Positions 12,527-27,030 of a stretch of DNA of 64,000 nucleotides are shown one piece after another. Every line of letters begins with the position of its first letter. Position 1 is the stretch's first letter. Below the pieces are notes generated by a model. The model had not been told where the DNA came from. It saw only the letters and a list, made by a program, of their open reading frames with translations, and ran no database searches. This DNA is from an uncultured Candidatus Saccharibacteria bacterium. Its GTDB lineage: Bacteria; Patescibacteriota; Minisyncoccia; 2-02-FULL-40-12; GWA2-44-9. A program made the position numbers and the translations under genes. The stretch is from NCBI GenBank assembly GCA_964513645.1, contig CAZENF010000002.1:73409-137408 (forward strand), written 5' to 3'.

Positions 12527-12979
12527 TTAACGAGTAACAGATATAGGCGTGGTGATCTCGGCTCCAGGAGCGTCGACAGTTATTCTGCCTCCGCCTGCCG
12601 CTTGCATTATCCTGTATCCGGTATCGGCCGCCGTTCCTGTTGAGGGGTCCATGACCATGGTTGAAACATAGGTCGGGACGATGCATGAAGCAAGGTCAAT
12701 GTTGCCGGCTCCTGAACCGACTGCGGTCAAGGCAGCAGGCAATGTGACGGTTACAGCACCGCAGGTTGAACTCCAGACTCCTTTGTTATCAACCATTCTT
12801 TGCCAAACACCATTTAAAATAGTGTTGACGTTGGAAACTCTCTGGGTATCGCGGGCTTGGGCAAACTGTCTGGCCGGGTTCAAAGCAACGATAACCACGG
12901 CTGCCAAGATGGCGATAATACCGATAACGACCAAAATTTCTATAAGGGTGAATCCTGACTGTTTATTGTAATTTTTCAT
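12527..12979 (-). CDS. Type IV major pilin (PilA-like), copy 1
   Basis: N-terminal class III signal QSGFTLIEILVVIGIIAILAAVV (G|FTLIE prepilin cleavage and N-methylation motif). Confidence 0.8.
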   Translation of the reverse strand: MKNYNKQSGFTLIEILVVIGIIAILAAVVIVALNPARQFAQARDTQRVSNVNTILNGVWQRMVDNKGVWSSTCGAVTVTLPAALTAVGSGAGNIDLASCIVPTYVSTMVMDPSTGTAADTGYRIMQAAGGGRITVDAPGAEITTPISVTR

Positions 12980-13107
12980 TTGCGAAATGATTTAAAATGA
13001 TTTTGTTTAAAGACACTATCCGCTCAAGCGCTTTCGAGCAGATAATCGACCTCCAGTAGTAATTGTAACACCGAAAAATCATATAACTAAGATCGTTATC
13101 AACAAAA

Positions 13108-13137
13108 CTAAAACGTCCCAATCGGGGCGTTTTAGTT
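13108..13137 (-). terminator. Rho-independent terminator downstream of pilin copy 2
   Basis: aaaacgtccc-aatc-ggggcgtttt plus T-run. Confidence 0.5.
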
Positions 13138-13151
13138 TTATAAGAGAGATA

Positions 13152-13604
13152 TTACCTGGTAACAGTTATCGGGGTGGTAATTTCAGCACTCGGTGCATCA
13201 ACGGTAATTCTACCGCCTCCGGCCGCTTGCATAATACGGTAGCCGGTGTTAGCCGCCGTTCCTGTTGAGGGGTCCATGACCATGGTTGAAACATAGGTCG
13301 GGACGATGCATGAAGCAAGGTCAATGTTGCCGGCTCCTGAACCGACTGCGGTCAAGGCAGCAGGCAATGTGACGGTTACAGCACCGCAGGTTGAACTCCA
13401 GACTCCTTTGTTATCAACCATTCTTTGCCAAACACCATTTAAAATAGTGTTGACGTTGGAAACTCTCTGGGTATCGCGGGCTTGGGCAAACTGTCTGGCC
13501 GGGTTCAAAGCAACGATAACCACGGCTGCCAAGATGGCGATAATACCGATAACGACCAAAATTTCTATAAGGGTGAATCCTGACTGTTTATTGTAATTTT
13601 TCAT
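13152..13604 (-). CDS. Type IV major pilin, copy 2 (tandem duplicate)
   Basis: Identical to copy 1 except for 3 aa (D/N, G/S, S/T). The 625 bp duplicated unit includes the upstream region. Confidence 0.8.
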   Translation of the reverse strand: MKNYNKQSGFTLIEILVVIGIIAILAAVVIVALNPARQFAQARDTQRVSNVNTILNGVWQRMVDNKGVWSSTCGAVTVTLPAALTAVGSGAGNIDLASCIVPTYVSTMVMDPSTGTAANTGYRIMQAAGGGRITVDAPSAEITTPITVTR

Positions 13605-13730
13605 TTGCGAAATGATTTAAAATGATTTTGTTTAAAGACACTATCCGCTCAAGCGCTTTCGAGCAGATAATCGACCTCCAGTAGTAATTGTAACAAATAC
13701 TCGAAAACTAATTATCCACACCGATTGGGT

Positions 13731-15167
13731 CTACTTTACCTCGCTCCAGAATATCTCTTGATAATAATCGGAAGTCAATGGAAAGCTTGGCGGTGGCCCG
13801 TAGAGAAGATTACTATCATATATCAAATTTCTGTTGGTATATCCGGTATTATCAGTATAAGCGAAGCCATATCTTTGGTACGAACCTATCATGCCATAAG
13901 AAGTTATAGTATTTCTGACGTAACTCGCGCCACAGGATGAAGAATAGTAATAACGCCCGACCCGGCCGTTTTGAGCGATCAGAGCCGCATCCGCCCGTAA
14001 AATATCATCGCTGTTCAAACCGATGTTTATATTATTCTGGGCAATCAAACTGATAATATCCTTGCCGTCATAATTGGTATACAAGAGATTGGTATTTATC
14101 GTGATGCTTGTTCTGGTGGCAGGATTGTCCGGAAATTTTCCCGAAGCAATGGTCACGCGTGAATTATTTATTTGTCCCCTGACCCAGACATTGTCTTCGA
14201 CAAATATTAAACCATTCGCCGGTATCGGATGATTGCCGAGCAGGGTTTCTGTTGAAATGCTCCATGTCCCCCAGCCTGACTGGCCTAAACTGTCACTGCA
14301 ACCACCGGGAGCGTTTGTTAATTTAGTTACTTTATAGATATCGAAGGTATTATTTGTTTTAAGAACAATATCGTATCCATTCGAACCGGACGGGGCAAAA
14401 TACTGGCCACTGGCCTGCGCACTTATTTTAATTTGAGAAAGAGAGGAGGTTATGCCCGTAAAATCAACGGCCGGTACCGGGAACTGTCTTCCGGCTATAA
14501 AAACATCTGGACGATTGGGCACAGCTGCCGGAGGTAGTGGGTCAACTGGATTCACATGCGTATGGACCCCGAACTCATTTCCGCCGGCATGGTCAGGGTC
14601 GTCATAACTGACCACGGCGCTGGTAACAATATTGTGCGCTATCCCGTCAAATCTGATCCCTCCGTTCGAATGTATCTCTCCGAATACTTCTGTACCCGAA
14701 CCGAACCTGACATTGTCGTTCAACACGGCCGCATATTTGGCAAATGAAGGTTTGGCCAACTTGACCAAAATGGTCTTTGAAAGACCGGCGATGCCGCTGA
14801 TACTGCCAGTCGATTTAACAGTTACGACCGTGGAACCGATCGGCGGTGCGGTTATGTCGAGCTGGAACTGGCCGAGAAGATTGCCGGATTTATCATAAAA
14901 ATTGTGAGTATAGGGTCCCGCATGATTAGTACCGTCTTTGAAATCGAGGGGTGCATGAGCAAGATGCCAGCGGTAATATTCGATACCGGCCTCGGCGATC
15001 CTGAATGCTTGGTCCCGCTGGACATTGCGGCTCGCCGCATTGAAATTGGAACCGACCCAAAGCACAAGCCCGGAAAGTATTATCATCGCAACGAAAGCAA
15101 AAAGCAGAACCGCGATGGTCAGTTGGCCCGATTGTGGCCTGAACTTATTTTTTATCTCATTGGACAT
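13731..15167 (-). CDS. Pilus-associated protein (PilX-like N-terminal helix)
   Basis: A single N-terminal hydrophobic helix (LTIAVLLFAFVAMIILSG) followed by a large extracellular domain. It lies inside the pilus operon. The assignment is by context only. Confidence 0.35.
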   Translation of the reverse strand: MSNEIKNKFRPQSGQLTIAVLLFAFVAMIILSGLVLWVGSNFNAASRNVQRDQAFRIAEAGIEYYRWHLAHAPLDFKDGTNHAGPYTHNFYDKSGNLLGQFQLDITAPPIGSTVVTVKSTGSISGIAGLSKTILVKLAKPSFAKYAAVLNDNVRFGSGTEVFGEIHSNGGIRFDGIAHNIVTSAVVSYDDPDHAGGNEFGVHTHVNPVDPLPPAAVPNRPDVFIAGRQFPVPAVDFTGITSSLSQIKISAQASGQYFAPSGSNGYDIVLKTNNTFDIYKVTKLTNAPGGCSDSLGQSGWGTWSISTETLLGNHPIPANGLIFVEDNVWVRGQINNSRVTIASGKFPDNPATRTSITINTNLLYTNYDGKDIISLIAQNNINIGLNSDDILRADAALIAQNGRVGRYYYSSSCGASYVRNTITSYGMIGSYQRYGFAYTDNTGYTNRNLIYDSNLLYGPPPSFPLTSDYYQEIFWSEVK

Positions 15168-15816
15168 TTCGCAGATTTCTTATTAATACGGTGTTCGAAT
15201 AATCAGTACGGCTTTTTGTGTCTCCCGGAGTAGGGTCGACTGTGACAGTTATCTTCACCAGGCGGATCTGGTTAACATTGATCGGCGAAGGCATCGCTGT
15301 CTGCGTTCCGGTATAATTCGGGTCATAGTAAGTAAACAGGGACTGGCTTGCGACCGGCGCCAAAATTACATTATGAACAACATCTGTAAGTACTTCGTTC
15401 GCCGGATTATAGACCGCGGGATTTCCGGTCGGCTTGGTCAATCCTCTGGTCAAAGTTGTGCCTGAAACATAATATCTTACCCTCGAAAAAACACCGCTCC
15501 CGTCAACATCGCTGTAAAAAGTAAATGATTTTGATGAGGCCGACTCGATCGTATAGCTTCCGTTGGCGGAGGGCCCCATTCCTCTCATTTCAATTCCCAT
15601 ATTGCTCAAAGTTAAGCTGACCTCTTGCTGTTCGACAAATGACTGTCCTAAGAATATCTGAAGATTAAAAACGTTATAGCCGAAATAGCTGATAACAAAG
15701 ATCAGACCTGAGAGAATTGCCATCACAATAAGTATCTCAAGCAAAGTAAAACCCCGGCTTATAAATATTCTTGACCTGAAAAATTTAAAAATTTTTAAAT
15801 TAATTTTTTCTGTCAT
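15157..15816 (-). CDS. Minor pilin / pseudopilin with prepilin-type N-terminal domain
   Basis: RGFTLLEILIVMAIL motif. The start is chosen at M12, whose ATG overlaps the upstream stop (TAATG). The track ORF extends to 15849. Confidence 0.6.
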   Translation of the reverse strand: MTEKINLKIFKFFRSRIFISRGFTLLEILIVMAILSGLIFVISYFGYNVFNLQIFLGQSFVEQQEVSLTLSNMGIEMRGMGPSANGSYTIESASSKSFTFYSDVDGSGVFSRVRYYVSGTTLTRGLTKPTGNPAVYNPANEVLTDVVHNVILAPVASQSLFTYYDPNYTGTQTAMPSPINVNQIRLVKITVTVDPTPGDTKSRTDYSNTVLIRNLRNVQ

Positions 15817-17579
15817 TAAGGTGAAAGTGTTGCTCTGTATTCCTGCCAACCGTTAGAAATGGTTACGGGTACAGACATGTCCTGATATCCTGACTTGTGA
15901 AGAGTTAGGGTGTAATTGCCGTTGCTTAAGCCGTTGAAAAATGTCTGGCCATTAGGCAGACAAGTTGAACTGAAATTAACTGTTAGGTCGCTGATAGACG
16001 GCGTAATCGCTTGGTTATCGGTTCTAAGAATAACTTGGTATCGAAGATACCTGTTTCCATTATGAATCGCGTTCATCTGGACATCGCTGACCGTGTAGTA
16101 TGTAGAAGCGGTCCCGTCAGGCCCGACGAAATTCCAGGTTGCATTGTCATTATTTGTTGCGAGCTGGATCTTCAAGCTTGTCTGGGCAGGTTGAGAGAAG
16201 GTAAAAGATAAATTATAAAAATTCGTACTGGAAGTGCCGAAATCTATCGTGTTGGAGTTCAGCCATTCATCGCTTGAAGACGCATATTTGCCGTTTATAA
16301 GCTTGAGCGTTAACTGACCGACCGGACTATCGGCTTCGAGGTTAGTACTCTTGGCACTGTATTTACCGGCTGACCAGTCCGTATCAGTAGTCAAGTTCCG
16401 TCCGGTATATTTCTGGCTTGAAAATCCGCTTTTAGCCAAGGTGGCCGAAACGTCATTTATCCTTTGTCCGGAAGCGTCTTGAGCAGTAACCGAAAGAGAA
16501 GATTGGTTTTTAGGTTCCAGCATCCAGGCAACACTGAAATTACTGTTGGGATTGACAGTGAACGGCGACAAGAAAGAGGTCCCAGCTAAGTCGTAGTTTG
16601 CATCGGTATTCTGCAAAGTATAATTATCCCACTCGAGGTTTGTAGATCTATTTCCACTGACATCCGTCGTGTCACTGACTGAATACTTGAGAACGTTGGG
16701 TCCGGAACCGATCAATTTTGCCCCCTGTTCGGTGAAGTGAATAGCCGGTACAGCCTGACAGAATTTATTTTTGGTCGTAAGTGTCTGGGTGCTTAGTCGG
16801 TCAATGGCGAGAGTTAACAGTGTAACCTGATGACTGACGACTGTTGCATGCGGTTTCACCGGATTAGGGTTTGGCGGATCACCCGGTTTATAAGTCTTGT
16901 CTGTTGAATAGCCGGCCTTAGTGATGGTCACCTGATAGTTAAGAGAACTCGTGGCGATATCAACCAGCTGGAGCTGGCCATTGTTATTCGTAACGTCAGT
17001 AATGTTTATCGCCGGATTAACTGCATTGTTTACGACAGTCACGTTGGCTTGTGCTATCGGGTTGCCTGAAGCATCGATCGCATTCACAAAAAGATCGCCG
17101 TTTTTGGATGAACCTTCAAGATTGGCCGGACCGACATAAGTCGTAGTCGTTATGGGTTTAAAATTCGGACAGTTCTGACAAGTTAACGTAAGCTCAACTA
17201 ATTTGTAGTCGGCCGGAGCAATATCGTTCGGGACTCCGCCCAAAACTCCGTCGAAAGGATCGTCTATATTCCTGACCGTAGTATTTAAAACGAACTTAAA
17301 ACCGGATGTATTTATATTTTGCTGACCTGGAATTATTCCTGCCGGCGCTCCTCCTTGAATACCGATATCCTGATACTTGATGTTTCTTATAACTTCGAGC
17401 TGATTAGAAATAACCGTCAGACCGGTCGCACTCAACTGGGAAGCAACAGTAATATCTATTACACTTTGATAAGCCGAGTATATCGCCGAGGATACGATCG
17501 CAAATATTGCAATCGCAACCAGAGCCTCGACGAGGGTAAATCCTTTCTGACCATTTTTAATATTTAAATATTTGAACAT
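15816..17579 (-). CDS. Large minor pilin with prepilin-type N-terminus
   Basis: KGFTLVEALVAIAIFAIV motif, 587 aa, with a beta-rich Thr/Asn-rich ectodomain. Confidence 0.6.
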   Translation of the reverse strand: MFKYLNIKNGQKGFTLVEALVAIAIFAIVSSAIYSAYQSVIDITVASQLSATGLTVISNQLEVIRNIKYQDIGIQGGAPAGIIPGQQNINTSGFKFVLNTTVRNIDDPFDGVLGGVPNDIAPADYKLVELTLTCQNCPNFKPITTTTYVGPANLEGSSKNGDLFVNAIDASGNPIAQANVTVVNNAVNPAINITDVTNNNGQLQLVDIATSSLNYQVTITKAGYSTDKTYKPGDPPNPNPVKPHATVVSHQVTLLTLAIDRLSTQTLTTKNKFCQAVPAIHFTEQGAKLIGSGPNVLKYSVSDTTDVSGNRSTNLEWDNYTLQNTDANYDLAGTSFLSPFTVNPNSNFSVAWMLEPKNQSSLSVTAQDASGQRINDVSATLAKSGFSSQKYTGRNLTTDTDWSAGKYSAKSTNLEADSPVGQLTLKLINGKYASSSDEWLNSNTIDFGTSSTNFYNLSFTFSQPAQTSLKIQLATNNDNATWNFVGPDGTASTYYTVSDVQMNAIHNGNRYLRYQVILRTDNQAITPSISDLTVNFSSTCLPNGQTFFNGLSNGNYTLTLHKSGYQDMSVPVTISNGWQEYRATLSP

Positions 17580-17588: not shown

Positions 17589-18659
17589 CTACCGTCCGAG
17601 AGTTTGAGTTATCTTGTATATCGGAGTAATAATGGCTAAAGCCACGAAAGCAACGATCATGCCCATCACCAGCAAAAGCAGTGGTTCCAGAACGTTCGAA
17701 ATAGATTTAGTGGTCTCATCGAGTTCTGATTCATAATAATCAGCCAGAAAGAGTATCGACTCGTCCAATTTGCCGGTATTTTCACCGACCAGTATCATCT
17801 GGGAAAATATCGGCGGAAAAAGTTTCGGGTTCTGGGTAAAATATTTCGACATTGGGTCTCCCTTTCTGACCCCTTCCGATATTTTCAGCAGTTCTCTTCT
17901 ATAAACCAGATTGGACAAGGTACTGGCTGTTATTTCAAGAGACTCGACTATTTTAATTCCTGATTTAAGGAGTAGACCGATAGTTCTTGAGAAGCTGATA
18001 ATATTTACTGACCGCACCATGTCTCCGATTAAGGGAATGGATATAAGTATTACATGCCAGACATACCTTATCTTCTCAACCCTTAAGAGAAGCCAGAAGG
18101 CGACAAGCATGGCAACTATACCGACTCCAACCAGGTAGCCGTAATGGATAAGAAATTGTGAAATTGCAATGAAGGCCAGAGTAGTTACCGGCAGGTCAAC
18201 ATGCAAGCTGGTCAGAACCGGTAATATCTTCGGAAAAATTACAAAGATCATTACCGAGGTGATCCCGACCGTGGCCACAAAAATAACTACCGGATAAGCC
18301 ATTGCCCCTTTTATCTTCTTCTGGAGCTCGTCTCTTTTTTTTAATTCCTCATATAAATATTTAAGGTTCTCGCTTAAGGTTCCCGAGGCTTCCCCTACTC
18401 GGATAAGATTGATGAAAAAATCTCCGAAAACATTCCGGTAGCGTTCAAGGCCGGCTGAAAGAAAGTGCCCGTTCTTAATATCAAGTATCAGCTGGTCAAG
18501 AATTTTGATAAAAGTCCTGGAGCGTGATTGTTTTTTTAATATCTCTAAGCTTTGAAGTATCTGCATGCCCGAACGCATCATCACCTCAAGATTCCTGGCA
18601 AAAAGCATTTTATCCTTATTCGAAAGCCGGAAAAAAAAATTTTTCAGATTAAATTTCAT
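17589..18659 (-). CDS. pilC: Type IV pilus platform protein PilC/GspF family
   Basis: T2SSF-domain pattern (FARNLEVMMRSGMQILQSLEIL…) with 3 predicted TM segments. At 356 aa it is shorter than the usual two-domain PilC. Confidence 0.75.
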   Translation of the reverse strand: MKFNLKNFFFRLSNKDKMLFARNLEVMMRSGMQILQSLEILKKQSRSRTFIKILDQLILDIKNGHFLSAGLERYRNVFGDFFINLIRVGEASGTLSENLKYLYEELKKRDELQKKIKGAMAYPVVIFVATVGITSVMIFVIFPKILPVLTSLHVDLPVTTLAFIAISQFLIHYGYLVGVGIVAMLVAFWLLLRVEKIRYVWHVILISIPLIGDMVRSVNIISFSRTIGLLLKSGIKIVESLEITASTLSNLVYRRELLKISEGVRKGDPMSKYFTQNPKLFPPIFSQMILVGENTGKLDESILFLADYYESELDETTKSISNVLEPLLLLVMGMIVAFVALAIITPIYKITQTLGR

Positions 18660-18662
18660 ATT

Positions 18663-20411
18663 TTATTCATTAACAACGCGTAAGATCTCCTCGAGGGTCG
18701 TATAGCCGGCTAAAGCTTTTTTGAAACCGTCCTCAAGAAGAGGTATCATTCCGTTCTTAACCGCGATCTTTTTTATCTCACCGGCATCAGCCCGCCTCAT
18801 TATCGCTTCCCTGATAAAATCATTGACCTCGAGTATTTCGTAAATTCCCATCCGACTGAAATAGCCGGTATCTCCGCACTCCTGACAACCTTTGCCGTAA
18901 TAAAAATCGCGGTGATTATCTATCAGATCCGACGGGAGAATACTTTTTAAGTTCTCAAGCTCTGCATCGGTAAGTTTTTTCTTGGTCTTACAATGGGGAC
19001 AGATCATCCTGACCAGACGCTGACCAATGGCAATATTTATCGTTGAGGCCACCAGGAACGGCTCGATCCCCATATCGAGCAGTCTGGGCAAGGTAGTTGC
19101 AGAATCATTGGTGTGAATGGTTGAAAGAAGTTTGTGTCCGGTCAAAGCGGCATTAACCGCTATTGAGGCGGTCTCCTGGTCACGTATCTCTCCGACCATG
19201 ATAACGTTCGGGTCCTGCCTAAGTATCGAACGTAGTCCAGCCGCAAAAGTAAGTCCGGTTCTGGTATTGACCTGGATTTGGTCAACACCTTCGAGAGAAT
19301 ATTCTATCGGATCTTCCACTGTGATAACCGATACCTCACGGGTATTAACTTCCTTAAGTATCGTGTAAAGCGTAGTCGTTTTACCGGAACCGGTCGGACC
19401 GGTAGCCAAGATCATTCCGTGTGGACGCTGGGTAGATTTTCTGATTTTCAGTTTATCTTCCCCCGTCAAAGCCAGGTCATCGAGTTTTGATATCTGGGTC
19501 TGCTCAGCCAAAAGACGAAGAACAGAATTTTCTCCGTAATAAGTCGGAATTATCGAGACCCGGACATCAAATTGGCTTGGCGGATTTGCGATTGCGATCT
19601 TAAAACGTCCGTCCTGGGCCGCTTGGTGTTCATCCGTTCTCATTCCGCCCAGAACTTTTATCCTGGTTATAATACCCGAGTGTATCTCTTTGGGAAAACT
19701 GAAAACATCGTGAAGAATCCCGTCTATTCTCAAGCGTGCAATTAGATGTTCTTCAAAAGGTTCGAGGTGTATGTCTGAAGCACGAGCCATGAAAGAATAT
19801 TCCATCATACTGTCAACCAAAGCAATTATAGAAACTTCGGCCGGCGGAGCGGTGAGCATTTTATCTATTTTGGCTTTTATCCGCTTAGGCGCTTCGAGCG
19901 GAATTACAGTTTTAGGCGAAGTTGAAGCTGGTTTACGGGCAGTAATGTCCACTGGGACAGATTCTTTTTTAACGATCGGTATTTTTTCTAAAGGTATTTC
20001 CCGGTTTTTACTCTTTAGGATTTCCTCTATCTTGGTCACTATCTCGTCGGTATTGGTCAGGGCTTTAACAAGATAAAAATTCGCTCCGACCTTCAGACTC
20101 TTTTCCATCGCTTCGGGCTGGTCGAGGTTGAAAAGGATCATTATCGGCAAAGCGACCTTGTCATAATTTTTTCTTAATTTTTCAATAAGCTCAAAACCAT
20201 CAACCTCACCGGCCAAGGGCAGGTCAAGAAGTATCAACAGAGGGTGTTCTTTGGCAATTTTTTCCGAAACCTCCTTGCCGTCATATAAAGTTACGGCTTC
20301 ATATCCGACATTGGATATCTTCTCGGCCAAAAGTTCAGCCATGAAGATGTTATCTTCGACTATTAGTATTTTGCCAAGATTTATTGCGGTTTTAATTTTT
20401 GAAACAGCCAT
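18663..20411 (-). CDS. pilB: Response-regulator receiver domain fused to PilB/GspE-family pilus assembly ATPase
   Basis: The N-terminus is a CheY-like receiver (ILIVEDN…LILLDLPLAGEVDGFELIEKL…LVKA). It is followed by Walker A GPTGSGKTTTLY, an Asp box (MVGEIRD), a His box, and the tetracysteine motif CPHC…CQEC. Confidence 0.85.
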   Translation of the reverse strand: MAVSKIKTAINLGKILIVEDNIFMAELLAEKISNVGYEAVTLYDGKEVSEKIAKEHPLLILLDLPLAGEVDGFELIEKLRKNYDKVALPIMILFNLDQPEAMEKSLKVGANFYLVKALTNTDEIVTKIEEILKSKNREIPLEKIPIVKKESVPVDITARKPASTSPKTVIPLEAPKRIKAKIDKMLTAPPAEVSIIALVDSMMEYSFMARASDIHLEPFEEHLIARLRIDGILHDVFSFPKEIHSGIITRIKVLGGMRTDEHQAAQDGRFKIAIANPPSQFDVRVSIIPTYYGENSVLRLLAEQTQISKLDDLALTGEDKLKIRKSTQRPHGMILATGPTGSGKTTTLYTILKEVNTREVSVITVEDPIEYSLEGVDQIQVNTRTGLTFAAGLRSILRQDPNVIMVGEIRDQETASIAVNAALTGHKLLSTIHTNDSATTLPRLLDMGIEPFLVASTINIAIGQRLVRMICPHCKTKKKLTDAELENLKSILPSDLIDNHRDFYYGKGCQECGDTGYFSRMGIYEILEVNDFIREAIMRRADAGEIKKIAVKNGMIPLLEDGFKKALAGYTTLEEILRVVNE

Positions 20412-20419
20412 TTTTAATT

Positions 20420-20827
20420 TTAATTAGAGACGGGTTGAAGTTCTTTTTTTACCCTCTCGATAACTTTGTCGAGGTCTTCTGTTTTTCTAAGATGGCCGAG
20501 CGCTCCGATGTCTTTGGCGAATTTTTCATCCAGAGGTTGGTCGGCCGTATTGGCCTCGCCGTAATTCGTTAAAAAAAGAACCTTGAGTCCTGCCGTTTCC
20601 GGGTCAGATTTTATCTTGGACAAAGTCTCAATGCCGTTCATCACCGGCATTTGAACATCGAGAAGGATCATGTCCGGTTTTATCGCTTTTGCCTTTTCAA
20701 ATGCAACCTGACCGTTTTCGGCTTCCTCAACCGCAAAACCGGCTACTTCGAGCTTTGTTCTCAAGAGCAAACGCATATCACCGTCGTCGTCAACTTCCAA
20801 AACAATAAATTTACCATTCTTAGGCAT
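20420..20827 (-). CDS. Stand-alone CheY-like response regulator receiver
   Basis: FIVLEVDDDGD…MILLDVQMPVMNGIETL…LKVLFLTNYG. The start is chosen at the MPKNGKF methionine. The track ORF extends to 20875. Confidence 0.7.
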   Translation of the reverse strand: MPKNGKFIVLEVDDDGDMRLLLRTKLEVAGFAVEEAENGQVAFEKAKAIKPDMILLDVQMPVMNGIETLSKIKSDPETAGLKVLFLTNYGEANTADQPLDEKFAKDIGALGHLRKTEDLDKVIERVKKELQPVSN

Positions 20828-20929
20828 ATAGTAATAATATACCATATTTACTCTCATTAATCGTCCACTTATCAAGACGTGTGCCAGATCGAGATTTACA
20901 CATTTTTTATATCGCAGTATAATTAAGTT

Positions 20930-21430
20930 GTGAGCGCATCTTCACCTAAACAAGTACTTCTCCGGGATATTATGACCAAAAAGGTATTTTCGATTTCGCC
21001 GGACGCTTCAATTCTCGAAGCGGCAAAAATAATAAGCGAGCATAACTTTGACGGTCTGCCGGTAACAGACAAAGAGAATCATCTGGTCGGAATAATCACA
21101 GAATATGACCTTATCCTGCGGACTTCGACCGTAAATTCTTCATTTCTACAAAAAGTACTGAATGAGGTAAGGACCAAAAAACAGGACGAAGAAGATCAAA
21201 ACGCTACAGAACAACTGTCTTCCCTGAAAGTATCGGACATCATGAACAAAGAACCGCTGGCTCTCCGAGAGGATATGAATTTTGAAGAAGCGGTAGCCGC
21301 TTTCATTACCCATCACAAAGTAAATCCGATACCCGTTGTCGACAAAGACAACAAGGTCGTCGGCATAATCAGCAGATATGATGCGCTGCGTCCGCTTAAT
21401 CTGCTTGGTTATACTTCACACAAAAAATAA
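20930..21430 (+). CDS. CBS-domain pair protein
   Basis: Two CBS motifs (…FDGLPVTDKENHLVGIITEYDL… and …HKVNPIPVVDKDNKVVGIISRYD…). Confidence 0.7.
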   Translation: MSASSPKQVLLRDIMTKKVFSISPDASILEAAKIISEHNFDGLPVTDKENHLVGIITEYDLILRTSTVNSSFLQKVLNEVRTKKQDEEDQNATEQLSSLKVSDIMNKEPLALREDMNFEEAVAAFITHHKVNPIPVVDKDNKVVGIISRYDALRPLNLLGYTSHKK

Positions 21431-21928
21431 ATGACGGACCAAAAAGAAACATCCAAAATAAGAGCCAGTGATATTATGACCCGAGAGGTCGTCTACGTTC
21501 ATCCGGACGTCCCGATATTGGAAGTGGCCAAAGTCCTGGCTGAACATAATTTTGACGGTGTTCCGGTGGTGGATAACGACAACAAACTCATCGGCATAGT
21601 TACTGAATACGACCTGATAAATAAAACTTCGGCCGTGCACCTGCCGACTCTTCAGATAGTTCTCAAGAATCTTCCCCAATTCAAAAAAGAAGGCGACCAA
21701 TTCCAACAGGAGATCCTGTCACTGAAAGTCTCCGACATTATGAATAAAGAACCGTTGGCCATTCCCCCGGAGATGGCTTATGATGAAGTAATAAACATCT
21801 TCAAGGACCACCATCGTGTTAACCCGATACCCGTCGTAGACAAAGACAACAAGGTCCTCGGCGTTATCAGCCGCTTCGACGTTCTGCGACCTTTCCATGT
21901 ACTCCAAGGAGTTCTGAAATATTTTTAA
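21431..21928 (+). CDS. CBS-domain pair protein (paralog of the preceding gene)
   Basis: Same architecture as the preceding gene at about 50% identity. Its ATG overlaps the preceding stop. Confidence 0.7.
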   Translation: MTDQKETSKIRASDIMTREVVYVHPDVPILEVAKVLAEHNFDGVPVVDNDNKLIGIVTEYDLINKTSAVHLPTLQIVLKNLPQFKKEGDQFQQEILSLKVSDIMNKEPLAIPPEMAYDEVINIFKDHHRVNPIPVVDKDNKVLGVISRFDVLRPFHVLQGVLKYF

Positions 21929-21955
21929 AAACCTCCGCTCAAGTGGAGGTTTTTA
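21927..21955. terminator. Bidirectional rho-independent terminator between the CBS gene (+) and the histidine kinase (-)
   Basis: aaaaacctccgctc-aa-gtggaggttttta: a stem with A-run and T-run on both sides. Confidence 0.55.
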
Positions 21956-23539
21956 TGTCAGAGGTATTTTAACCATAAATTTACTGCCCTTGCCACGCCC
22001 TTCCGATTCCACCCACATCTCGCCATGATGGCCGGTGACAATGGCATGGGCAATGAACAAACCAAGTCCGGTACCTTCTATCTGCTTGGTTGAGGAATCT
22101 CTTTTAAACTCTTCGAAAAGATGAGGCAAGAGCTCTTTGGATATGCCGTGGCCTGAATCAGAAACTGAAAACAAAAACTTGCCGTCAGAGAATTCCGTTC
22201 TGACCTTAACAAAACCTTGGTCCGTGTATTTGATCGAGTTTTCTATTAAATTCTGGAAAACCTGCCTTATCTTCTGGGCATCGGCATTTACCCATCCCCC
22301 GCCCGGCTGAACCTCGAGAGTGAATTCAAGTTTTTTATTTTGAGCCAACGGCTTAAGCTCTTCAAAAAGACTGCGGATGATCTCAACAACGTCTATCTTC
22401 TCCATTTGGTACTCCATTTTACCCTCCTCTATCTTTCTGATACTTAAAAAATCACTGACCAGCTGGACCATGCGGTCGGCAGAATCTTTTATCTTGTGGG
22501 CGCCTTCTTTAGCTTTTTCGGGAACATCGCCATAGGTTCCATCATAAATAAATGTTGAAAAACCTTTTATCGCAGCCAATGGGGCTTTTATCTGATGCGA
22601 AGCAAATGACAGGAACTCGGATTTTAAATGGTCGAGTTCTTTTAATTTTTCGTTAGCTTCACCTAATTCTTTTGTCAGAACTTCGAGCTTCTCCCTCTGT
22701 TCAACTTCTTTCAAAACACTCCGGATAAGAAAAACTCCGAACATAAATAAAAGACAGAATAGGGTTATTCTCAAGATAAGTTCAAGGGCGCTCCTGGCCG
22801 TAAAGACTTCGAAAAGGGATATCGAAAGAATTGCGAAAGTGACCATTTCCGTCGTAACCGCTTTCACATTCAGGAGATGGTGTTTCATTATCGCATAGCC
22901 CATTCCGATAATAGCCGGGAGAATGAATATCGGACCCAAATCAACAAAGAAAGTATTGTTGAACAGCACTACCAGCAGATAATTTGTGGTTACGAGTAGA
23001 ATAAATGTCGAAAACACACCTAAGACCATCGCACGCCATTGTTTTCTTTCGAGGTCTTTGGCGGCCAGATATTTTTTTATCATCATAAATATGCTCGCGA
23101 TAAGATAGCTCAAGACAACCAGCCCGAAAAGTGGCATCAATGGTCCGGGTATCGGCACAACCGAAGTTTTTCCAAGCTGGTAACCGCTGAAAACAAAAGG
23201 TGAGATTGTCGTTAACATCACCAAAAAAGTGCCGATCAGAACCAAAGAAAGATAAACCCGAGATATCCTTAACTTAACTTCCGGAAAGTTATAAATGAAC
23301 AGAAAGAAACTTGCCATCAGGGGAACGGCAAAGAAAAGGACCATCCTTATCCAGAACAGGACATTCACCGGTTCCGAGGTCAAAGAAAAATAATTTGCCA
23401 GAGACCAGAAAACAGCCGATAAGCTCATCAGAAAGAAGAACAGGTTGGTCATACTCTTTCGGTCATGAAAATAAACAATTATTCCCATAAAAAATATCCC
23501 GAAAGACCCGATCATTGTATATGCTAACTCCTGTGCCAT
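21953..23539 (-). CDS. Membrane sensor histidine kinase (multi-TM N-terminal sensor, HisKA, HATPase)
   Basis: About 7 N-terminal TM helices, an H-box SFASHQIKAPLAAIKGF, and N/G boxes (NLIENSIKYT, GTGLGLFIAHAIV). Confidence 0.8.
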   Translation of the reverse strand: MAQELAYTMIGSFGIFFMGIIVYFHDRKSMTNLFFFLMSLSAVFWSLANYFSLTSEPVNVLFWIRMVLFFAVPLMASFFLFIYNFPEVKLRISRVYLSLVLIGTFLVMLTTISPFVFSGYQLGKTSVVPIPGPLMPLFGLVVLSYLIASIFMMIKKYLAAKDLERKQWRAMVLGVFSTFILLVTTNYLLVVLFNNTFFVDLGPIFILPAIIGMGYAIMKHHLLNVKAVTTEMVTFAILSISLFEVFTARSALELILRITLFCLLFMFGVFLIRSVLKEVEQREKLEVLTKELGEANEKLKELDHLKSEFLSFASHQIKAPLAAIKGFSTFIYDGTYGDVPEKAKEGAHKIKDSADRMVQLVSDFLSIRKIEEGKMEYQMEKIDVVEIIRSLFEELKPLAQNKKLEFTLEVQPGGGWVNADAQKIRQVFQNLIENSIKYTDQGFVKVRTEFSDGKFLFSVSDSGHGISKELLPHLFEEFKRDSSTKQIEGTGLGLFIAHAIVTGHHGEMWVESEGRGKGSKFMVKIPLT

Positions 23540-25011
23540 TTTTGTTTTATCCCCGGAACAAAGAAATCTTTGTCTCCATACTCACGGAGGATTATTTTCG
23601 GTTCGATCAAAGAACCCATGGTTTTTGAGAGTTCATTGTACTCGGTGTTTTTTTGTTTAAGCGCTCTGACAACCGAACTTCTTACACTCCCCTCGAGTTT
23701 TGGTCCCGATTTTGCACCTTTTTTAAGTTCGATGTTTATCTCGAGATACTGATTAAGTTTTTCGTCGTTCATGGTCATCATCGTAAACTTTCCGCTGACG
23801 TGCCGGGAAACTTCATCCGCACTCAAACCATCCCGGATATTTTCAGGATAAATATTCATCCCGTATAAACTGGCAGTAAAATCATCCCGGCCAAAAACAT
23901 AAACGAACGGCAGCTGCCAGGTGTTTATTTTTTTCTTCTCGGCCTCTTTTTCCATATCAAATCCGCTTTCAGCTAATATGCTTTTCATTTCGGAGTATCC
24001 AACGACATCACCAGTATCACCGAGGTCGTACCGAACCAGCGGAATACCGCTTGAAGTTGAAAAAATAAGTTTCCCATCTTCGGCTTCGGTATATTTAAAA
24101 GCCGGATTATACTGCGCCAGGGTCGGCACCCGGCCGTCTTTTGAAAATATTTTTTTATAAAGTTCGGGTTTTTCATAAGTAACCGTCCGTCTTACCAGAT
24201 TAGACAGAGGCGTTTCGTGGGCCATGATAACCGCGTCGGCGGTCCCGTATATATTAAGCGAGCCTTTATACAGGTCTCCTGTACCGGCTTTTTTATATAA
24301 ATAATCCCGCCATTTTTCGCTGAAAGATTCCGCCGCAAAAAGAAACTTGATGTTATATTTCTTCCAGTTTATTCCGTTATCTTTGCCCTGGTCTATCATA
24401 TCTTTGACGAACGGCGGATAACCGGCAATGATTATCCGGTCATAGTGGTGGCCGATAGCTTTCACCACTTTGAACACTTCCGGAATATTTATCCCAGGAG
24501 TGACCACGGTCATTTTGTGATTTTCCGCGATCGCCTGAGTCGCTCGATATATCAAAGTTCCGCCTATCCAAACCCCCATCGCAAAAGAAACTATAAAAAG
24601 CGTTGAACCTCTGCCGACCCCGAACGCATCCTGATAAAAAGCATTCAGGGTCAGAACGGCTTCTTTTTCCTGTTCGTGACCGCGCAGCCAATAGAAAGGT
24701 TCCCCGGTCGAACCGGAGCTGACCGAGATCATATCCATTAGACCGGGCTCGCCATCCCAACATAATTCCGGGAACGGATATTTGCGCAGATAATTTTTTT
24801 TGTTGACTGTCGGTACTTTTTTGAGGTCGGCGGCAGTTTTGATCAAGCTATGCAAGATACCGTGATCCTTCAGGAATTTTTTATAAGCCGGGACTCTCGT
24901 AGCAGTTGAGTGAAATAACTTAAGAGCTTTTTTCTCGCCTTCGGCCAACCAAAAATCTTCTTTCTTGGTTTCAAGATATTTTTTATATTTTTCTGAATCT
25001 TCTTTAAACAT
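23524..25011 (-). CDS. PaaK/CapK/F390-synthetase-family adenylate-forming enzyme
   Basis: N-terminal PaaK-like region (…RVPAYKKFL…LKKVPTVNKKNYLRKYPF…) and the AMP-binding-like motif SSGSTGEPFYW. Confidence 0.55.
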   Translation of the reverse strand: MFKEDSEKYKKYLETKKEDFWLAEGEKKALKLFHSTATRVPAYKKFLKDHGILHSLIKTAADLKKVPTVNKKNYLRKYPFPELCWDGEPGLMDMISVSSGSTGEPFYWLRGHEQEKEAVLTLNAFYQDAFGVGRGSTLFIVSFAMGVWIGGTLIYRATQAIAENHKMTVVTPGINIPEVFKVVKAIGHHYDRIIIAGYPPFVKDMIDQGKDNGINWKKYNIKFLFAAESFSEKWRDYLYKKAGTGDLYKGSLNIYGTADAVIMAHETPLSNLVRRTVTYEKPELYKKIFSKDGRVPTLAQYNPAFKYTEAEDGKLIFSTSSGIPLVRYDLGDTGDVVGYSEMKSILAESGFDMEKEAEKKKINTWQLPFVYVFGRDDFTASLYGMNIYPENIRDGLSADEVSRHVSGKFTMMTMNDEKLNQYLEINIELKKGAKSGPKLEGSVRSSVVRALKQKNTEYNELSKTMGSLIEPKIILREYGDKDFFVPGIKQKWHRS

Positions 25012-26029
25012 ACACTTTCTCCATATTCAGATCGTAACGTCCGGACTTCATTTCTTTTCCTGAAATTATCCGCCTGACCACATAACTTAGCGCCGCTCCC
25101 CTCAAAAAAGACGACTCGGCAAGCTGGGGAATACCGGCAAGTTTTGAACCAACCAAGTGGAAAGATCTGACCAGGTCGGGATGAAGGTATTTTTTATCCA
25201 TAAAATCCATCATTAGTTTTATCTTTTTCTCAAAAGGCAGCGGCCCGGACTTTATATCTTCCGTCACTTTTTTACTTAAATGGCCGTTCAAAAAAGGAAG
25301 GTCGGGCTTAAGGTCAAATCTCTCTACATCAATTATAACATTGGGCCCGTTGCCGGTAACCATGACCACCGGGATTCGGTTCTCGCGGGCTATTTCCCTC
25401 AATTTCAACTTGAGGAGTAAATTATCCGTTTCCTCAACCAAAACGTCTATTTTAGGTTTAAGCAAAAAGGTTTTAATATTCTCATCACTAATACCTTGAT
25501 CAAAAACTTCGAGCTTGGCAAAAGGATTTATCTCATAGATTTGTCTCGAGGTCAGAACAGCCTTGTTTAGACCTAAATCAGGCAGACCGGCTCTGAAACG
25601 GTTAAGATTTGAAACTGAAAGCACATCATTGTCGGCCAATTTCATGCCAGCTTCAGATTCAAGCGCCAGGCAAACCGCTCCCGGATTGCCGACATTCAGT
25701 CCGGCGACGCCTATCCGCGCTTTGGATAGTTTAGCTTCCTCGTCGTCAGATATAAGATATTTGTTTCTCGAGGATCGTAAAAGTTTAAAATCTTTTTCGT
25801 TGAGACAATTAACCAACGCATGTCTCCACGGATAATGAACCCAGACTGATTCTGCTGAAAATTTATCCTTGGGGTCTGCTGTTTTCAAAAGTCCAGGATT
25901 TTTGACGAACTTAAGTTCTTTGAGCTGCTCCTCAAGTTCATCGATAATTTCAGGTCGGCCGTTCTTTATCTTCTGAAATTCTTTTTTATCGGCCGCTTTT
26001 TTAAGATCGAAAATTCGGGGTTGGGTCAT
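25004..26029 (-). CDS. ThiF/MoeB (E1-like) family protein
   Basis: ARIGVAGLNVGNPGAVCLA (a Rossmann GxGxxG-like region) followed by DNDVLSVSNLNRF (the E1-family D-x-D…SNLNRQ motif). Confidence 0.5.
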   Translation of the reverse strand: MTQPRIFDLKKAADKKEFQKIKNGRPEIIDELEEQLKELKFVKNPGLLKTADPKDKFSAESVWVHYPWRHALVNCLNEKDFKLLRSSRNKYLISDDEEAKLSKARIGVAGLNVGNPGAVCLALESEAGMKLADNDVLSVSNLNRFRAGLPDLGLNKAVLTSRQIYEINPFAKLEVFDQGISDENIKTFLLKPKIDVLVEETDNLLLKLKLREIARENRIPVVMVTGNGPNVIIDVERFDLKPDLPFLNGHLSKKVTEDIKSGPLPFEKKIKLMMDFMDKKYLHPDLVRSFHLVGSKLAGIPQLAESSFLRGAALSYVVRRIISGKEMKSGRYDLNMEKVYV

Positions 26030-27030
26030 ATTAATTTTTCTTCGATGCTGTGGCGTGGACTGTGCTTAGGTTTGTAATTCATATATCCGGCGCAGAACAG
26101 AAACTGGGGAGTTAAACTTATCTCCGCAATCTCCTGGACCTTCTTATACAAATCCCCCATTTCAATTGAAGCGACAAAGATAGAAGTTTTGATATCTTCC
26201 GAATTAAGCTGAAGCATATATCTCTGGGCAAGTCGTCCGACCTCAAGCCAAATCTCCGGATTTGACTCTTCAGAACTTAAAAGACAAATGAAAGGCGTTG
26301 AGGCCATGCTTTTGTAATTAAGTTTGGCCAAGAACGGTCCAATATCAAAAAATTTAACCATCGTCGGTATTAGGAACGAAAGAAGAAATGGCATTCTCAA
26401 AGAGTAGCCAGGCAGGCCGGTTTTTTTGGCAGATAAACTATTGTTCATCCAACCCGACATTTCTTTTCTAAAAGAAGGTTTCTTATAAGCAAGTTTGAGG
26501 CCTTCGGCGGTTAAGACGGCAAGGTTATTTATCTTTTCTTTATTTGTTATGAAGTCCGTCCGGATACGCCCGTCCTTCTTTAAAGACATCATCTCCGCCT
26601 GTATTTTCCCGGGCAAGGGCTTTTGTTCGAATAATCCCCTGGCATTTACCCTCTTGGGTATTGTATCGACAAGGTATTCAAGGTCCGTGTTGGCGGAACC
26701 ATTATTTTGAAAATCGAGCTGGGCAACCAAGTCATTCGAGAGAATAATTTTTTCACTTTTATATATCCCGAAATAGTTCGCGGCAATTATTAAATTTTCG
26801 ACAAGACAACCCATGCTGATATACAGGTCGCGACCCAACGGGTCGGCCTGGGGTATCTTAAGTTTGGGATCAAAATATATCTTTAAAGTGTTGTTTTCTA
26901 TTTTGAAAAGCCAGGGCTGACTGTTGTGAGTTGACGGTGCAAGAACGCCATAGTTAAGAATAAATTTAATTTTTTCATTTAAATTGCCGGTTTTAGTAAA
27001 ATCTTCTTTTTTGACATTCCAAGGGTTCAT
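26026..27030 (-). CDS. Nitroreductase-family protein (long, Acg-like two-lobe form)
   Basis: An N-terminal PSTHNSQPW motif characteristic of the nitroreductase fold. 334 aa. Confidence 0.6.
   Translation of the reverse strand: MNPWNVKKEDFTKTGNLNEKIKFILNYGVLAPSTHNSQPWLFKIENNTLKIYFDPKLKIPQADPLGRDLYISMGCLVENLIIAANYFGIYKSEKIILSNDLVAQLDFQNNGSANTDLEYLVDTIPKRVNARGLFEQKPLPGKIQAEMMSLKKDGRIRTDFITNKEKINNLAVLTAEGLKLAYKKPSFRKEMSGWMNNSLSAKKTGLPGYSLRMPFLLSFLIPTMVKFFDIGPFLAKLNYKSMASTPFICLLSSEESNPEIWLEVGRLAQRYMLQLNSEDIKTSIFVASIEMGDLYKKVQEIAEISLTPQFLFCAGYMNYKPKHSPRHSIEEKLI

What the first reader, a model, noticed from the sequence alone, without database searches (positions are those of the whole stretch)
17589..23539. 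Type IV pilus module wired to two-component signalling: a REC::PilB fusion ATPase, a stand-alone receiver, a 7-TM histidine kinase and two CBS proteins
PilB here (18663-20411) lacks the usual GSPII_E N-terminal domain. It carries a CheY-like receiver with the conserved acidic pocket, the phospho-acceptor Asp (LILLDL), and the Thr/Lys of the switch. Immediately upstream are a single-domain receiver (20420-20827), then divergently two CBS-pair proteins and a multi-TM histidine kinase (21953-23539). Phosphorylation-gated control of the assembly ATPase itself would be a direct switch for piliation, twitching or DNA uptake. This domain fusion is uncommon.
Basis: partly seen in the sequence, partly recalled or inferred. 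Interest (0 to 1): 0.6.

Follow-up and report, generated by a model that had tools for sequence, protein, structure and literature searches.

The report
Receiver-fused pilus motor in Parcubacteria
In this candidate-phyla-radiation (Parcubacteria) genome the motor ATPase that builds type IV pili carries a two-component receiver domain in place of its usual N-terminal domain and sits in a conserved gene block with a membrane sensor kinase and a second small receiver, which suggests, but does not prove, that pilus assembly is switched directly by phosphorylation.

Summary
They are a 7TM histidine kinase, two CBS-pair genes on the other strand, a 135-aa receiver, REC::PilB (582 aa), PilC and several pilins. 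One detail is wrong. The motor's receiver keeps the acidic pair (E19, D20), the acceptor Asp (D63) and the Lys (K116), but the switch Thr is a Phe (F94), and this holds in 109 of 120 homologues.

The fusion is standard in Parcubacteria, with at least 130 protein clusters. Kinase, receiver, REC::PilB and PilC are syntenic in 8 of 8 loci that keep the acceptor Asp. A sister clade has a fully canonical receiver. Another has lost the Asp and shows no adjacent kinase. The stand-alone receiver is canonical and adjacent in 11 of 11 related loci, as in the window.

The CBS genes are not conserved in the block (window plus 1 of 11 related loci). Other receiver–PilB fusions exist, for example MshEN-T2SSE-REC in Omnitrophota. 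None was found in the literature searched.

Best reading: the pilus motor is under post-translational two-component control through an atypical receiver. Phosphorylation itself is untested. This is a new variant of a known kind, of moderate interest.

The parts
21953..23539 (-). Sensor histidine kinase, 528 aa. It has an N-terminal 7TM region with 1-2 further hydrophobic segments, a HisKA domain with H315 (SHQIKAPL), and an HATPase_c domain with N, G1 and G2 boxes.
   Evidence: Pfam HisKA_7TM E=5e-15, HisKA 6e-13, HATPase_c 6.5e-27. Hydropathy and box motifs. Orthologues at 37-55% identity lie upstream of the pilus operon in 7 of 8 compared loci.
21929..21952 (.). Perfect 24-nt hairpin (AAACCTCC-GCTCAAGT-GGAGGTTT) between the convergent ends of the kinase gene and CBS2. 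It is probably a bidirectional terminator.
   Evidence: Read directly from the sequence.
20930..21928 (+). Two stand-alone CBS-pair proteins (166 and 165 aa), divergent from the pilus operon. They are neighbours, not core parts.
   Evidence: Pfam CBS E=3e-33 each. The strongest sigma-70-like site of the region lies at 20895-20923 in front of CBS1. Clear orthologues are found only in L002; L004 has a single 28-29% match about 6 kb upstream of REC::PilB.
20420..20827 (-). Stand-alone canonical receiver, 135 aa, with D13, D14, D57, T87 and K115. It carries a family-specific ~6-residue insertion before beta5.
   Evidence: Pfam E=1e-21. Alignments, and residues. It lies directly upstream of REC::PilB, and is canonical, in 11 of 11 related loci.
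20013..20372 (-). Receiver domain of the motor (residues 14-133). Key residues are E19-D20 (20352-20357), acceptor D63 (20223-20225), F94 in place of the switch Thr (20130-20132), Y113 and K116 (20064-20066).
   Evidence: Pfam, PDB alignments, residue counts over 120 homologues, a (beta-alpha)5 AlphaFold model with pLDDT 81-92, codon check.
19893..20012 (-). Variable, predicted-disordered tether (residues 134-173) between the receiver and the ATPase.
   Evidence: pLDDT is below 50 for residues 142-169. This is the highest-entropy segment, 2.96 bits.
18663..19892 (-). PilB/GspE-type extension ATPase core (N2 + CTD). It has Walker A (GPTGSGKT), an Asp box, Walker B, a His box and the tetracysteine motif C471/C474/C509/C512.
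   Evidence: Pfam T2SSE E=6e-115. Invariant columns. NCBIfam GspE and PilB profiles match only from profile positions 99 and 177 onward. Foldseek gives TM 0.9 and 41-44% identity to PilF/PilB cores, against 22-26% to PilT.
17589..18659 (-). PilC/GspF platform protein, 356 aa.
   Evidence: Pfam T2SSF E=3e-53, NCBIfam. Syntenic in all loci.
10774..17579 (-). Pilin block.
- 587-aa pilin-like protein with Ig-like/CarboxypepD_reg domains (15816-17579).
- 230-aa minor pilin (15157-15849).
- 478-aa protein with an N-terminal hydrophobic segment (13731-15167).
- Two tandem 150-aa major-pilin genes (13152-13604, 12527-12979).
- 563-aa secreted fn3 protein (10774-12465).
   Evidence: N_methyl hits. GFTLIE, GFTLVE and GFTLLE motifs, and 148/150 identity between the two pilins. 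Synteny.
23524..27030 (-). Upstream cassette that overlaps the kinase gene by 16 nt.
- PaaK-like adenylate-forming enzyme (23524-25011).
- ThiF/TcdA-like E1 (25004-26029).
- Acg-like nitroreductase (26026-27030).
Its link to the pilus module is by conserved position only.
   Evidence: Pfam. PDB matches 2y4o E=5e-7, 4d7a 7e-9, 2ymv 7e-6. Present upstream of the kinase in L088 (same order), L005, L006 and L002, and more distantly in L087.

Best explanation
This is a lineage-specific type IV filament operon of Parcubacteria. Its gene order is small receiver, PilB-type extension ATPase, PilC platform, then five to six pilin-like proteins.

The motor has lost the usual N-terminal MshEN/N1 domain. 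In its place is a CheY-like receiver on a roughly 40-residue flexible tether. A 7TM sensor histidine kinase is encoded just upstream.

The most likely mechanism has three steps.
1. The kinase senses a membrane or envelope signal.
2. It transfers phosphate to D63 of the motor's own receiver and to D57 of the stand-alone receiver.
3. The phosphorylation state of the tethered receiver switches motor assembly or activity post-translationally, without a transcription factor.

The canonical stand-alone receiver would act as a competing branch, either a phosphate sink or a co-regulator.

In the window's clade the switch Thr is fixed as Phe. By analogy with CheY T87I, this receiver should still be phosphorylatable, should lose phosphate slowly, and cannot use Thr-Tyr coupling for output.

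Shown: the domain architecture, residue conservation, synteny and the PilB-type fold. Inferred: phosphotransfer, its target and its effect on the motor.
For: Architecture.

Active-site conservation in the window's clade:
- E19 and D20, 104/104.
- D63, 120/120.
- K116, 118/118.

Conservation map: the lowest-entropy parts of the receiver are the acidic loop (0.03), beta3 with D63 (0.85) and alpha1 (0.95). Alpha1 is the helix receivers use to dock on kinases. The alpha4-beta5-alpha5 face is variable (1.7-2.1).

Ancestral state: sister sequences P0271, P0272, P0132, P0273 and P0292 have the full canonical quintet. The fused domain was therefore a true receiver originally.

Synteny: a kinase orthologue lies within 0-4 kb upstream in 8 of 8 Asp-containing loci. 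No kinase is seen upstream in the 3 loci whose fused receiver lost Asp and Lys.

Independent fusions: canonical receivers fused to PilB elsewhere (MshEN-T2SSE-REC, REC-MshEN-T2SSE) show the combination is repeatedly selected.

Precedents: receivers act on PilB in trans, for example DrdR (PMC13507683) and PilG/PilH (PMC11656802). CheY T87I is phosphorylatable, with about 5-fold slower autodephosphorylation and no output (PMC3774744).
Against: - No phosphorylation data exist.
- F94 replaces the switch Thr, and Ala replaces the Pro after the Lys, so the domain is not a textbook receiver.
- A related clade keeps the fusion after losing the acceptor Asp. The domain therefore has some phosphorylation-independent role.
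- The kinase is transcribed separately and is translationally coupled to an unrelated-looking enzyme cassette.
- The link between Asp loss and kinase loss rests on one clade, effectively one evolutionary event. Two of those three loci have less than 3 kb of upstream sequence.
- No PilT, PilD or PilM is present in the 64-kb window.
Confidence: 0.55

Rival explanations
1. The fused receiver is a phosphorylation-independent pseudo-receiver that serves for docking, oligomerisation or localisation. The real switch is the canonical stand-alone receiver. Once phosphorylated by the kinase, it binds the motor, possibly through its receiver domain.
For: - F94 replaces the switch Thr in 109 of 120 sequences, and Ala replaces the cis-Pro.
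- The Liptonbacteria-type clade lost the acceptor Asp and Lys but keeps both the fusion and a fully canonical stand-alone receiver immediately upstream.
- The stand-alone receiver is canonical in all 11 related loci. It is tightly coupled to pilB, with an 8-nt gap in the window and overlapping coordinates in L001 and L004.
- Precedents are DrdR, a pseudo-receiver plus a functional receiver that binds PilB and PilT, and the Asp-less REC of FimX.
Against: In the window's clade, D63, E19, D20 and K116 are invariant over more than 100 sequences at 61-100% identity, while most of the domain drifts. A mere scaffold would not need them, and the clade that did degenerate lost them. The conserved surface is alpha1 plus the active site, not the usual partner face.
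Confidence: 0.3
2. The kinase and the small receiver belong functionally to the upstream enzyme cassette or to another target. Their position next to the pilus operon reflects genome compaction, not regulation.
For: - The kinase gene overlaps the PaaK-like gene by 16 nt and ends at a hairpin.
- Unrelated genes (CBS, HicAB, peptidase M16 and others) are inserted between the kinase and the receiver in several loci.
- The nitroreductase/ThiF/PaaK-like cassette accompanies the kinase in at least 5 loci.
Against: The kinase stays within 4 kb of the pilus operon in 8 of 8 Asp-containing loci, spanning 49-75% PilB identity. In L001 and L004 the cassette is absent and the kinase directly abuts the receiver gene. 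No other output protein with a receiver is present in the block.
Confidence: 0.07
3. The fibre is a short competence-type (ComG-like) pseudopilus for DNA uptake, not an adhesive or twitching pilus. The two-component input would then gate competence.
For: - The operon layout (ATPase, platform, major pilin, several minor pilins) has no PilM/N/O, PilT or secretin in the window, and so resembles ComG.
- NCBIfam gives weak ComGA, ComGB, ComGC and ComGF hits.
Against: - The core is closer to PilB/PilF/GspE (495 and 448 bits) than to ComGA (242 bits).
- The tetracysteine motif is present.
- Large Ig-like/fn3 pilin-associated proteins suggest adhesion.
- The rest of the genome, including any PilT, was not visible.
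Confidence: 0.3

Closest known systems
PilB / PilF / MshE / GspE extension ATPases with an N-terminal MshEN (N1) domain
   Same: - The N2 + CTD core has TM 0.9 and 41-44% identity to Thermus PilF and Geobacter PilB.
- It has Walker A and B, Asp and His boxes and a tetracysteine motif.
- It is encoded next to PilC and pilins.
- Regulatory input enters through the N-terminal region.
   Different: - The MshEN/N1 domain, which binds c-di-GMP in MshE and in Myxococcus and Clostridium PilB (PMC11656802), is absent.
- A receiver domain plus a disordered tether replaces it.
- Scores are below the NCBIfam equivalog cut-offs.
Receiver proteins that act on PilB in trans: PilG/PilH (Pil-Chp), DrdR of Xanthomonas, PATAN-REC regulators of Synechocystis, and the Asp-less REC of FimX
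   Same: - CheY-like receivers control the pilus motor post-translationally.
- DrdR pairs a degenerate with a functional receiver and stimulates PilB and PilT ATPase.
- PilH is proposed as a phosphate sink. This parallels the pairing of a canonical and an atypical receiver here.
   Different: - Here one receiver is covalently part of the motor.
- The kinase is a 7TM HisKA kinase, not a CheA-type kinase.
- No chemosensory proteins are present.
Other database PilB proteins fused to receivers: MshEN-T2SSE-REC (e.g. P0258, Candidatus Omnitrophota), REC-MshEN-T2SSE (P0266, P0185), MshEN-T2SSE-RECx3 (P0148). All are uncharacterised.
   Same: A receiver is fused to a PilB-type ATPase. Nearly all have the canonical DD/D/T(S)/K/P set.
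   Different: They keep MshEN and add the receiver at the C-terminus or in front of MshEN. The window type replaces MshEN and, in its clade, has Phe at the switch position.
CheY T87I, a receiver with a bulky hydrophobic residue at the switch Thr
   Same: A hydrophobic side chain sits at the end of beta4, with the Asp, acidic pair, Lys and Tyr all retained.
   Different: T87I is a laboratory mutant. It is phosphorylatable, loses phosphate about 5-fold more slowly, and gives no output (PMC3774744). Here Phe is the naturally fixed state in more than 100 sequences.
TadZ/CpaE atypical receiver domain of Tad pili (from my own knowledge, not checked here)
   Same: A degenerate receiver domain is built into a type IV filament assembly component.
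   Different: TadZ is a ParA/MinD-like localisation factor, not the motor, and its receiver lacks the phosphorylation site.

Membership tests
CheY-like receiver domain (PF00072): fused domain of PilB | (beta-alpha)5 fold and a significant profile match | tested here: met
   Pfam 60.5 bits against a cut-off of 30.2. PDB receivers match at E=1e-13. The AlphaFold model has five beta-alpha units with pLDDT 81-92.
CheY-like receiver domain (PF00072): fused domain of PilB | Acidic pair after beta1 and phospho-acceptor Asp at the end of beta3 | tested here: met
   E19 and D20 are 104/104. D63 is 120/120.
CheY-like receiver domain (PF00072): fused domain of PilB | Switch Thr/Ser at the end of beta4 | tested here: not met
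   The residue is F94. Counts are F 109, L 7, V 1, S 1. Sister sequences do have T or S.
CheY-like receiver domain (PF00072): fused domain of PilB | Conserved Lys after beta5, usually followed by a cis-Pro | tested here: met
   K116 is 118/118. The following residue is Ala in 96 sequences and Pro in only 5.
CheY-like receiver domain (PF00072): fused domain of PilB | Is actually phosphorylated on the Asp | not testable with these tools
   Needs phosphotransfer or acetyl-phosphate assays.
PilB/GspE-type extension ATPase | Walker A and B, Asp box, His box; N2 + CTD fold | tested here: met
   Invariant motifs. Foldseek TM 0.9 to 5oiu, 5tsh and 5zfr.
PilB/GspE-type extension ATPase | Tetracysteine zinc motif, which distinguishes PilB/GspE from PilT | tested here: met
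   C471, C474, C509 and C512 are invariant.
PilB/GspE-type extension ATPase | N-terminal N1/MshEN domain; full-length equivalog score | tested here: not met
   No PF05157 hit. TIGR02533 scores 495.6 against a cut-off of 630. TIGR02538 scores 447.6 against 675. Matches begin at profile positions 99 and 177.
Two-component system (kinase plus receiver) | Kinase with H-box His and a catalytic ATP-binding domain | tested here: met
   H315 in SHQIKAPL, plus N, G1 and G2 boxes.
Two-component system (kinase plus receiver) | Conserved genomic pairing of kinase and receiver genes | tested here: met
   A kinase orthologue lies upstream in 8 of 8 Asp-containing loci.
Two-component system (kinase plus receiver) | Phosphotransfer from this kinase to these receivers | not testable with these tools
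   Biochemical assay required.
Type IV pilus / type IV filament machinery | Platform protein and class III signal-peptide pilins | tested here: met
   T2SSF. N_methyl hits and G|FTL(I/V/L)E motifs in four proteins.
Type IV pilus / type IV filament machinery | Prepilin peptidase PilD, retraction ATPase PilT, alignment proteins PilM/N/O | tested here: inconclusive
   None was found in the 64-kb window. The rest of the genome was not available.
CBS-pair proteins as part of the module | Conserved co-location with the pilus/kinase genes | tested here: not met
   Clear orthologues occur only in the window and L002. L004 has one weak match (28-29%) about 6 kb upstream, and no CBS gene is seen in the other loci. 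Another CBS-pair gene lies at 54778-55323.

The most novel reading that the evidence does not exclude
Parcubacteria, which have very small genomes and few transcription factors, may control pilus deployment through a transcription-free two-component circuit. In this reading a 7TM kinase phosphorylates the extension motor itself. A Phe-for-Thr receiver would act as a long-lived phospho-latch, and a canonical single-domain receiver as its antagonist. The conserved nitroreductase/ThiF/PaaK-like cassette overlapping the kinase gene might make or modify the signal the kinase senses. Together with the independent MshEN-T2SSE-REC fusions in Omnitrophota, this would define 'receiver-gated pilus motors' as a general, so far unstudied, class of response-regulator output.
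Probability: 0.3. Interest if true: 0.7.

Novelty: new variant of a known kind. Interest (0 to 1): 0.5.

Why it matters
Known control of PilB works through c-di-GMP binding to its MshEN domain or through separate cofactors such as PilZ/FimX, PilG/PilH and DrdR. A motor that carries its own receiver would be the shortest possible path from a membrane sensor to pilus extension.

It occurs in uncultured, probably host-dependent bacteria. For these organisms pili are thought to be central to attachment or DNA uptake, and almost nothing is known about regulation.

The family also offers a natural series for studying how receiver chemistry couples to an AAA+-like motor:
- a canonical receiver;
- a Thr-to-Phe receiver;
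- an Asp-less receiver.

Tried and rejected
1. Looking up the window protein's own contig found nothing on record.
2. The GTDB scan was cut at 600 candidate rows, so it is not a census. Three apparent full-length hits (L019, L021, L039) proved to be ordinary MshEN-PilB. In L021 the 'N-terminal match' was the receiver of a neighbouring hybrid kinase.
3. Gene-fusion artefact was rejected. More than 130 clusters share the continuous ORF.
4. Origin of the fused receiver as a recent duplicate of the neighbouring receiver was rejected. The two share only 22% identity.
5. PilT-type identity was rejected on the tetracysteine motif and the fold ranking.
6. CBS proteins as module members were rejected on synteny.
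7. The sigma-70 and terminator scans were not above shuffled expectation. Only the single 11/12 site before CBS1 is mentioned.
8. Seven searches aimed at this architecture found no description of it, and a 2024 review of PilB control does not mention it. Subscription-only papers are not covered.
9. Rfam found only tmRNA and two tRNAs in the window.
Full report
**What is in the window**

On the minus strand, in order of transcription:
- a histidine kinase (23539..21953) with HisKA_7TM, HisKA and HATPase_c domains;
- a 135-aa single-domain receiver (20827..20420);
- a 582-aa protein (20411..18663) with Response_reg at residues 15-128 (E=2e-16) and T2SSE at 194-578 (E=6e-115);
- PilC/T2SSF (18659..17589);
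- a block of pilin-like genes down to 10774.

Between the kinase and the receiver, on the plus strand, lie two CBS-pair genes (20930-21928).

The pilin genes carry G|FTL(I/V/L)E prepilin motifs. Two tandem 150-aa pilin genes are 148/150 identical.

A perfect 24-nt hairpin separates the convergent ends of the kinase gene and CBS2. The best promoter-like site in the region sits in front of CBS1. The kinase is therefore transcribed separately from the pilus operon. Its start overlaps an upstream gene by 16 nt.

An HMM built from the ATPase family finds no second T2SSE ATPase in the 64 kb. Pfam scans of the remaining larger ORFs find no PilD, PilM or PilT.

**The motor**

NCBIfam GspE and PilB profiles match only from profile positions 99 and 177 onward, and the scores are below the equivalog cut-offs. 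No MshEN/T2SSE_N domain is detected.

Walker A and B, the Asp and His boxes and the tetracysteine motif (C471, C474, C509, C512) are invariant among homologues.

An AlphaFold model (mean pLDDT 82.8) shows:
- a (beta-alpha)5 receiver at residues 14-133;
- a disordered stretch at 142-169;
- an N2 + CTD core.

The core superposes on Thermus PilF and Geobacter PilB with TM 0.9 and 41-44% identity. PilT structures match at only 22-26% identity.

This is a PilB-type extension ATPase whose N1 domain has been replaced by a tethered receiver.

**The receiver is atypical**

Three lines of evidence place F94 at the position of CheY T87:
- phmmer alignments to solved receivers (VicR-like, PleD);
- a MAFFT alignment with CheY, Spo0F and PhoB;
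- the position at the end of beta4 in the model.

Counts over 120 homologues:

| CheY position | Window residue | Counts |
|---|---|---|
| D12, D13 | E19, D20 | 104/104 each |
| D57 | D63 | 120/120 |
| K109 | K116 | 118/118 |
| T87 | F94 | F 109, L 7, V 1, S 1 |
| P110 | A117 | Ala 96 |

The least variable parts of the domain are the acidic loop, beta3 with D63, alpha1, F94 and K116. The alpha4-beta5-alpha5 face is variable. The conserved surface is therefore the active site plus the helix receivers use to dock on kinases. This points to selection for phosphotransfer chemistry rather than for a classical output face. That step is an inference.

CheY T87I is reported to be phosphorylatable, to dephosphorylate about five-fold more slowly, and to give no output (PMC3774744). 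By analogy, a Phe at this position is compatible with phosphorylation but not with Thr-Tyr coupling.

**Distribution and evolution**

All 120 best homologues (61-100% identity) carry PF00072 + PF00437. Named ones are Candidatus Yanofskybacteria, Paceibacterota, Minisyncoccia or 'Patescibacteria group'.

A second search seeded with a Jorgensenbacteria protein (L006, 53% identity) added small sister groups. The NCBI taxonomy places Yanofsky-, Jorgensen- and Liptonbacteria in the Parcubacteria group.

Key residues differ by clade:
- P0271, P0272, P0132, P0273 and P0292 have a fully canonical set: (E/D)D, D, T/S, K.
- P0295, P0304 (Liptonbacteria) and P0308 have lost the acceptor Asp, the Lys and part of the acidic pair.
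- P0134 and P0340 are partly degenerate.

The fusion therefore began with a true receiver. It then diverged to a Phe variant (this window) and, separately, to an Asp-less pseudo-receiver.

In an exhaustive HMMER search of 50%-identity representatives, only two of the best 150 (P0132, P0134) align over the N-terminal receiver. PilB hits from other CPR groups (Saccharibacteria, Daviesbacteria, Berkelbacteria, Doudnabacteria) matched only the ATPase part of the query. The Saccharibacteria one that was checked (L039) carries MshEN.

**Other receiver-PilB fusions**

A local receiver HMM followed by Pfam showed that many of those 150 representatives carry receivers elsewhere:
- 14 have a C-terminal receiver; the seven of these scanned with Pfam are MshEN-T2SSE-REC (one is an N-terminally truncated fragment). 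One is named Candidatus Omnitrophota.
- 2 are REC-MshEN-T2SSE.
- 1 has three C-terminal receivers.

Nearly all have the canonical DD/D/T(S)/K/P residues. The query contains a receiver, so such proteins are enriched in the list and the count is not a frequency. It does show that receiver-motor fusion arose several times.

**Synteny**

Eleven related loci were examined.
- The stand-alone receiver lies immediately upstream of REC::PilB in 11 of 11. It has the canonical DD, D, T/S, K set everywhere, including the Asp-less loci.
- PilC follows in every locus.
- The large pilin, minor pilin, the ~480-aa protein and the ~150-aa pilin follow in the Yanofskybacteria-type loci and in L088.
- A kinase orthologue (37-55% identity) lies 0-4 kb upstream in all 8 loci whose fused receiver keeps the Asp. 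These are the window, L001, L002, L004, L005, L006, L087 and L088.
- No kinase is seen upstream in the three Asp-less loci. L086 has 8 kb of flank. L089 and L091 have only 1.2-2.6 kb.

The link between Asp loss and kinase loss is suggestive. It rests on one clade and on short contigs.

CBS genes occur only in the window and L002, with a weak match 6 kb upstream in L004. A third CBS-pair gene lies at 54778-55323. The CBS proteins are therefore bystanders.

A cassette precedes the kinase in the window, L088, L005, L006 and partly L002. It encodes an Acg-like nitroreductase, a ThiF/TcdA-like E1 and a PaaK-like adenylate-forming enzyme.

**Mechanism**

The reading I favour, at about 0.55, runs as follows. 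The 7TM kinase phosphorylates D63 of the motor's receiver and D57 of the small receiver. The state of the tethered receiver gates motor assembly or activity. The small receiver is a competing branch.

The main rival, at about 0.3, holds that the fused domain is a phosphorylation-independent docking module and that the small receiver is the real switch.
- In favour of the rival: the Phe substitution, and survival of the fusion after Asp loss.
- Against it: the strict conservation of the whole phosphorylation pocket in the window's clade.

Both models agree that two-component signalling acts on the motor protein rather than on transcription.

Whether the fibre serves adhesion, twitching or DNA uptake cannot be decided from this window.

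**Comparison with what is known, and novelty**

PilB control by c-di-GMP through MshEN, and by trans-acting receivers (PilG/PilH, FimX, DrdR, the cyanobacterial PATAN regulators), is established. A 2024 review of PilB control contains no mention of a receiver-fused PilB. Seven full-text searches found none.

The proteins are in public databases under generic names such as 'ATPase, T2SS/T4P/T4SS family'. I file this as a new variant of a known kind. It is a real, conserved and apparently undescribed architecture. Its parts are familiar and its mechanism is untested.

Interest is 0.5.

Noticed in passing
window 716-4237 (-): A 1173-aa class I aminoacyl-tRNA synthetase (tRNA-synt_1, Anticodon_1, DUF5915) has a histidine-phosphatase domain (His_Phos_1, E=5e-34) at residues 521-683. 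The insertion splits the catalytic-domain match, roughly where the editing (CP1) domain normally sits.
   Followed up: no
window 6012-7476 (-): A 257-aa proteasome-subunit homologue (PF00227, E=2e-28) lies next to an equally long ORF with no Pfam hit. This may be a 20S proteasome-like pair in a CPR genome.
   Followed up: no
window 23524-27030 (-); also L088 2278-5894, L005, L006, L002: A three-gene cassette lies directly upstream of, and in the window overlaps, the 7TM kinase gene in several Parcubacteria loci. It encodes an Acg-like nitroreductase, a ThiF/TcdA-like E1 and a PaaK-like adenylate-forming enzyme. Its function is unknown. It might be linked to the signal the kinase senses.
   Followed up: partly
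window 12527-12979 and 13152-13604 (-): Tandem duplication of the 150-aa major pilin gene. The two proteins differ at 2 of 150 residues, near the C-terminus.
   Followed up: partly
homologues P0121-P0131, P0274-P0349 (not in the window): Many proteins of about 1000 aa have two T2SSE stretches, some with MshEN as well. These are tandem double PilB-type ATPases in one polypeptide. Few carry names; one is 'uncultured bacterium ACD_8C'.
   Followed up: no
representatives P0258, P0155, P0160, P0190, P0161, P0148, P0266, P0185: PilB proteins with a canonical receiver at the C-terminus (MshEN-T2SSE-REC; one from Candidatus Omnitrophota), with three C-terminal receivers, or with a receiver in front of MshEN.
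   Followed up: partly
window 49032-51209 and 52093-52824 (-): Two proteins (725 and 243 aa) carry T4SS_pilin / TrbC-VirB2-like segments and lie next to a solute-binding protein gene.
   Followed up: no
window 62001-64000: G+C rises to 0.56, against about 0.43 in the rest of the window. No Rfam family such as rRNA explains it.
   Followed up: partly
L021 1438-3714: In a Dissulfurispiraceae MAG, a PAS-HisKA-HATPase-REC hybrid kinase lies immediately upstream of an ordinary MshEN-PilB. This is another, unfused, juxtaposition of two-component parts and the pilus motor.
   Followed up: no
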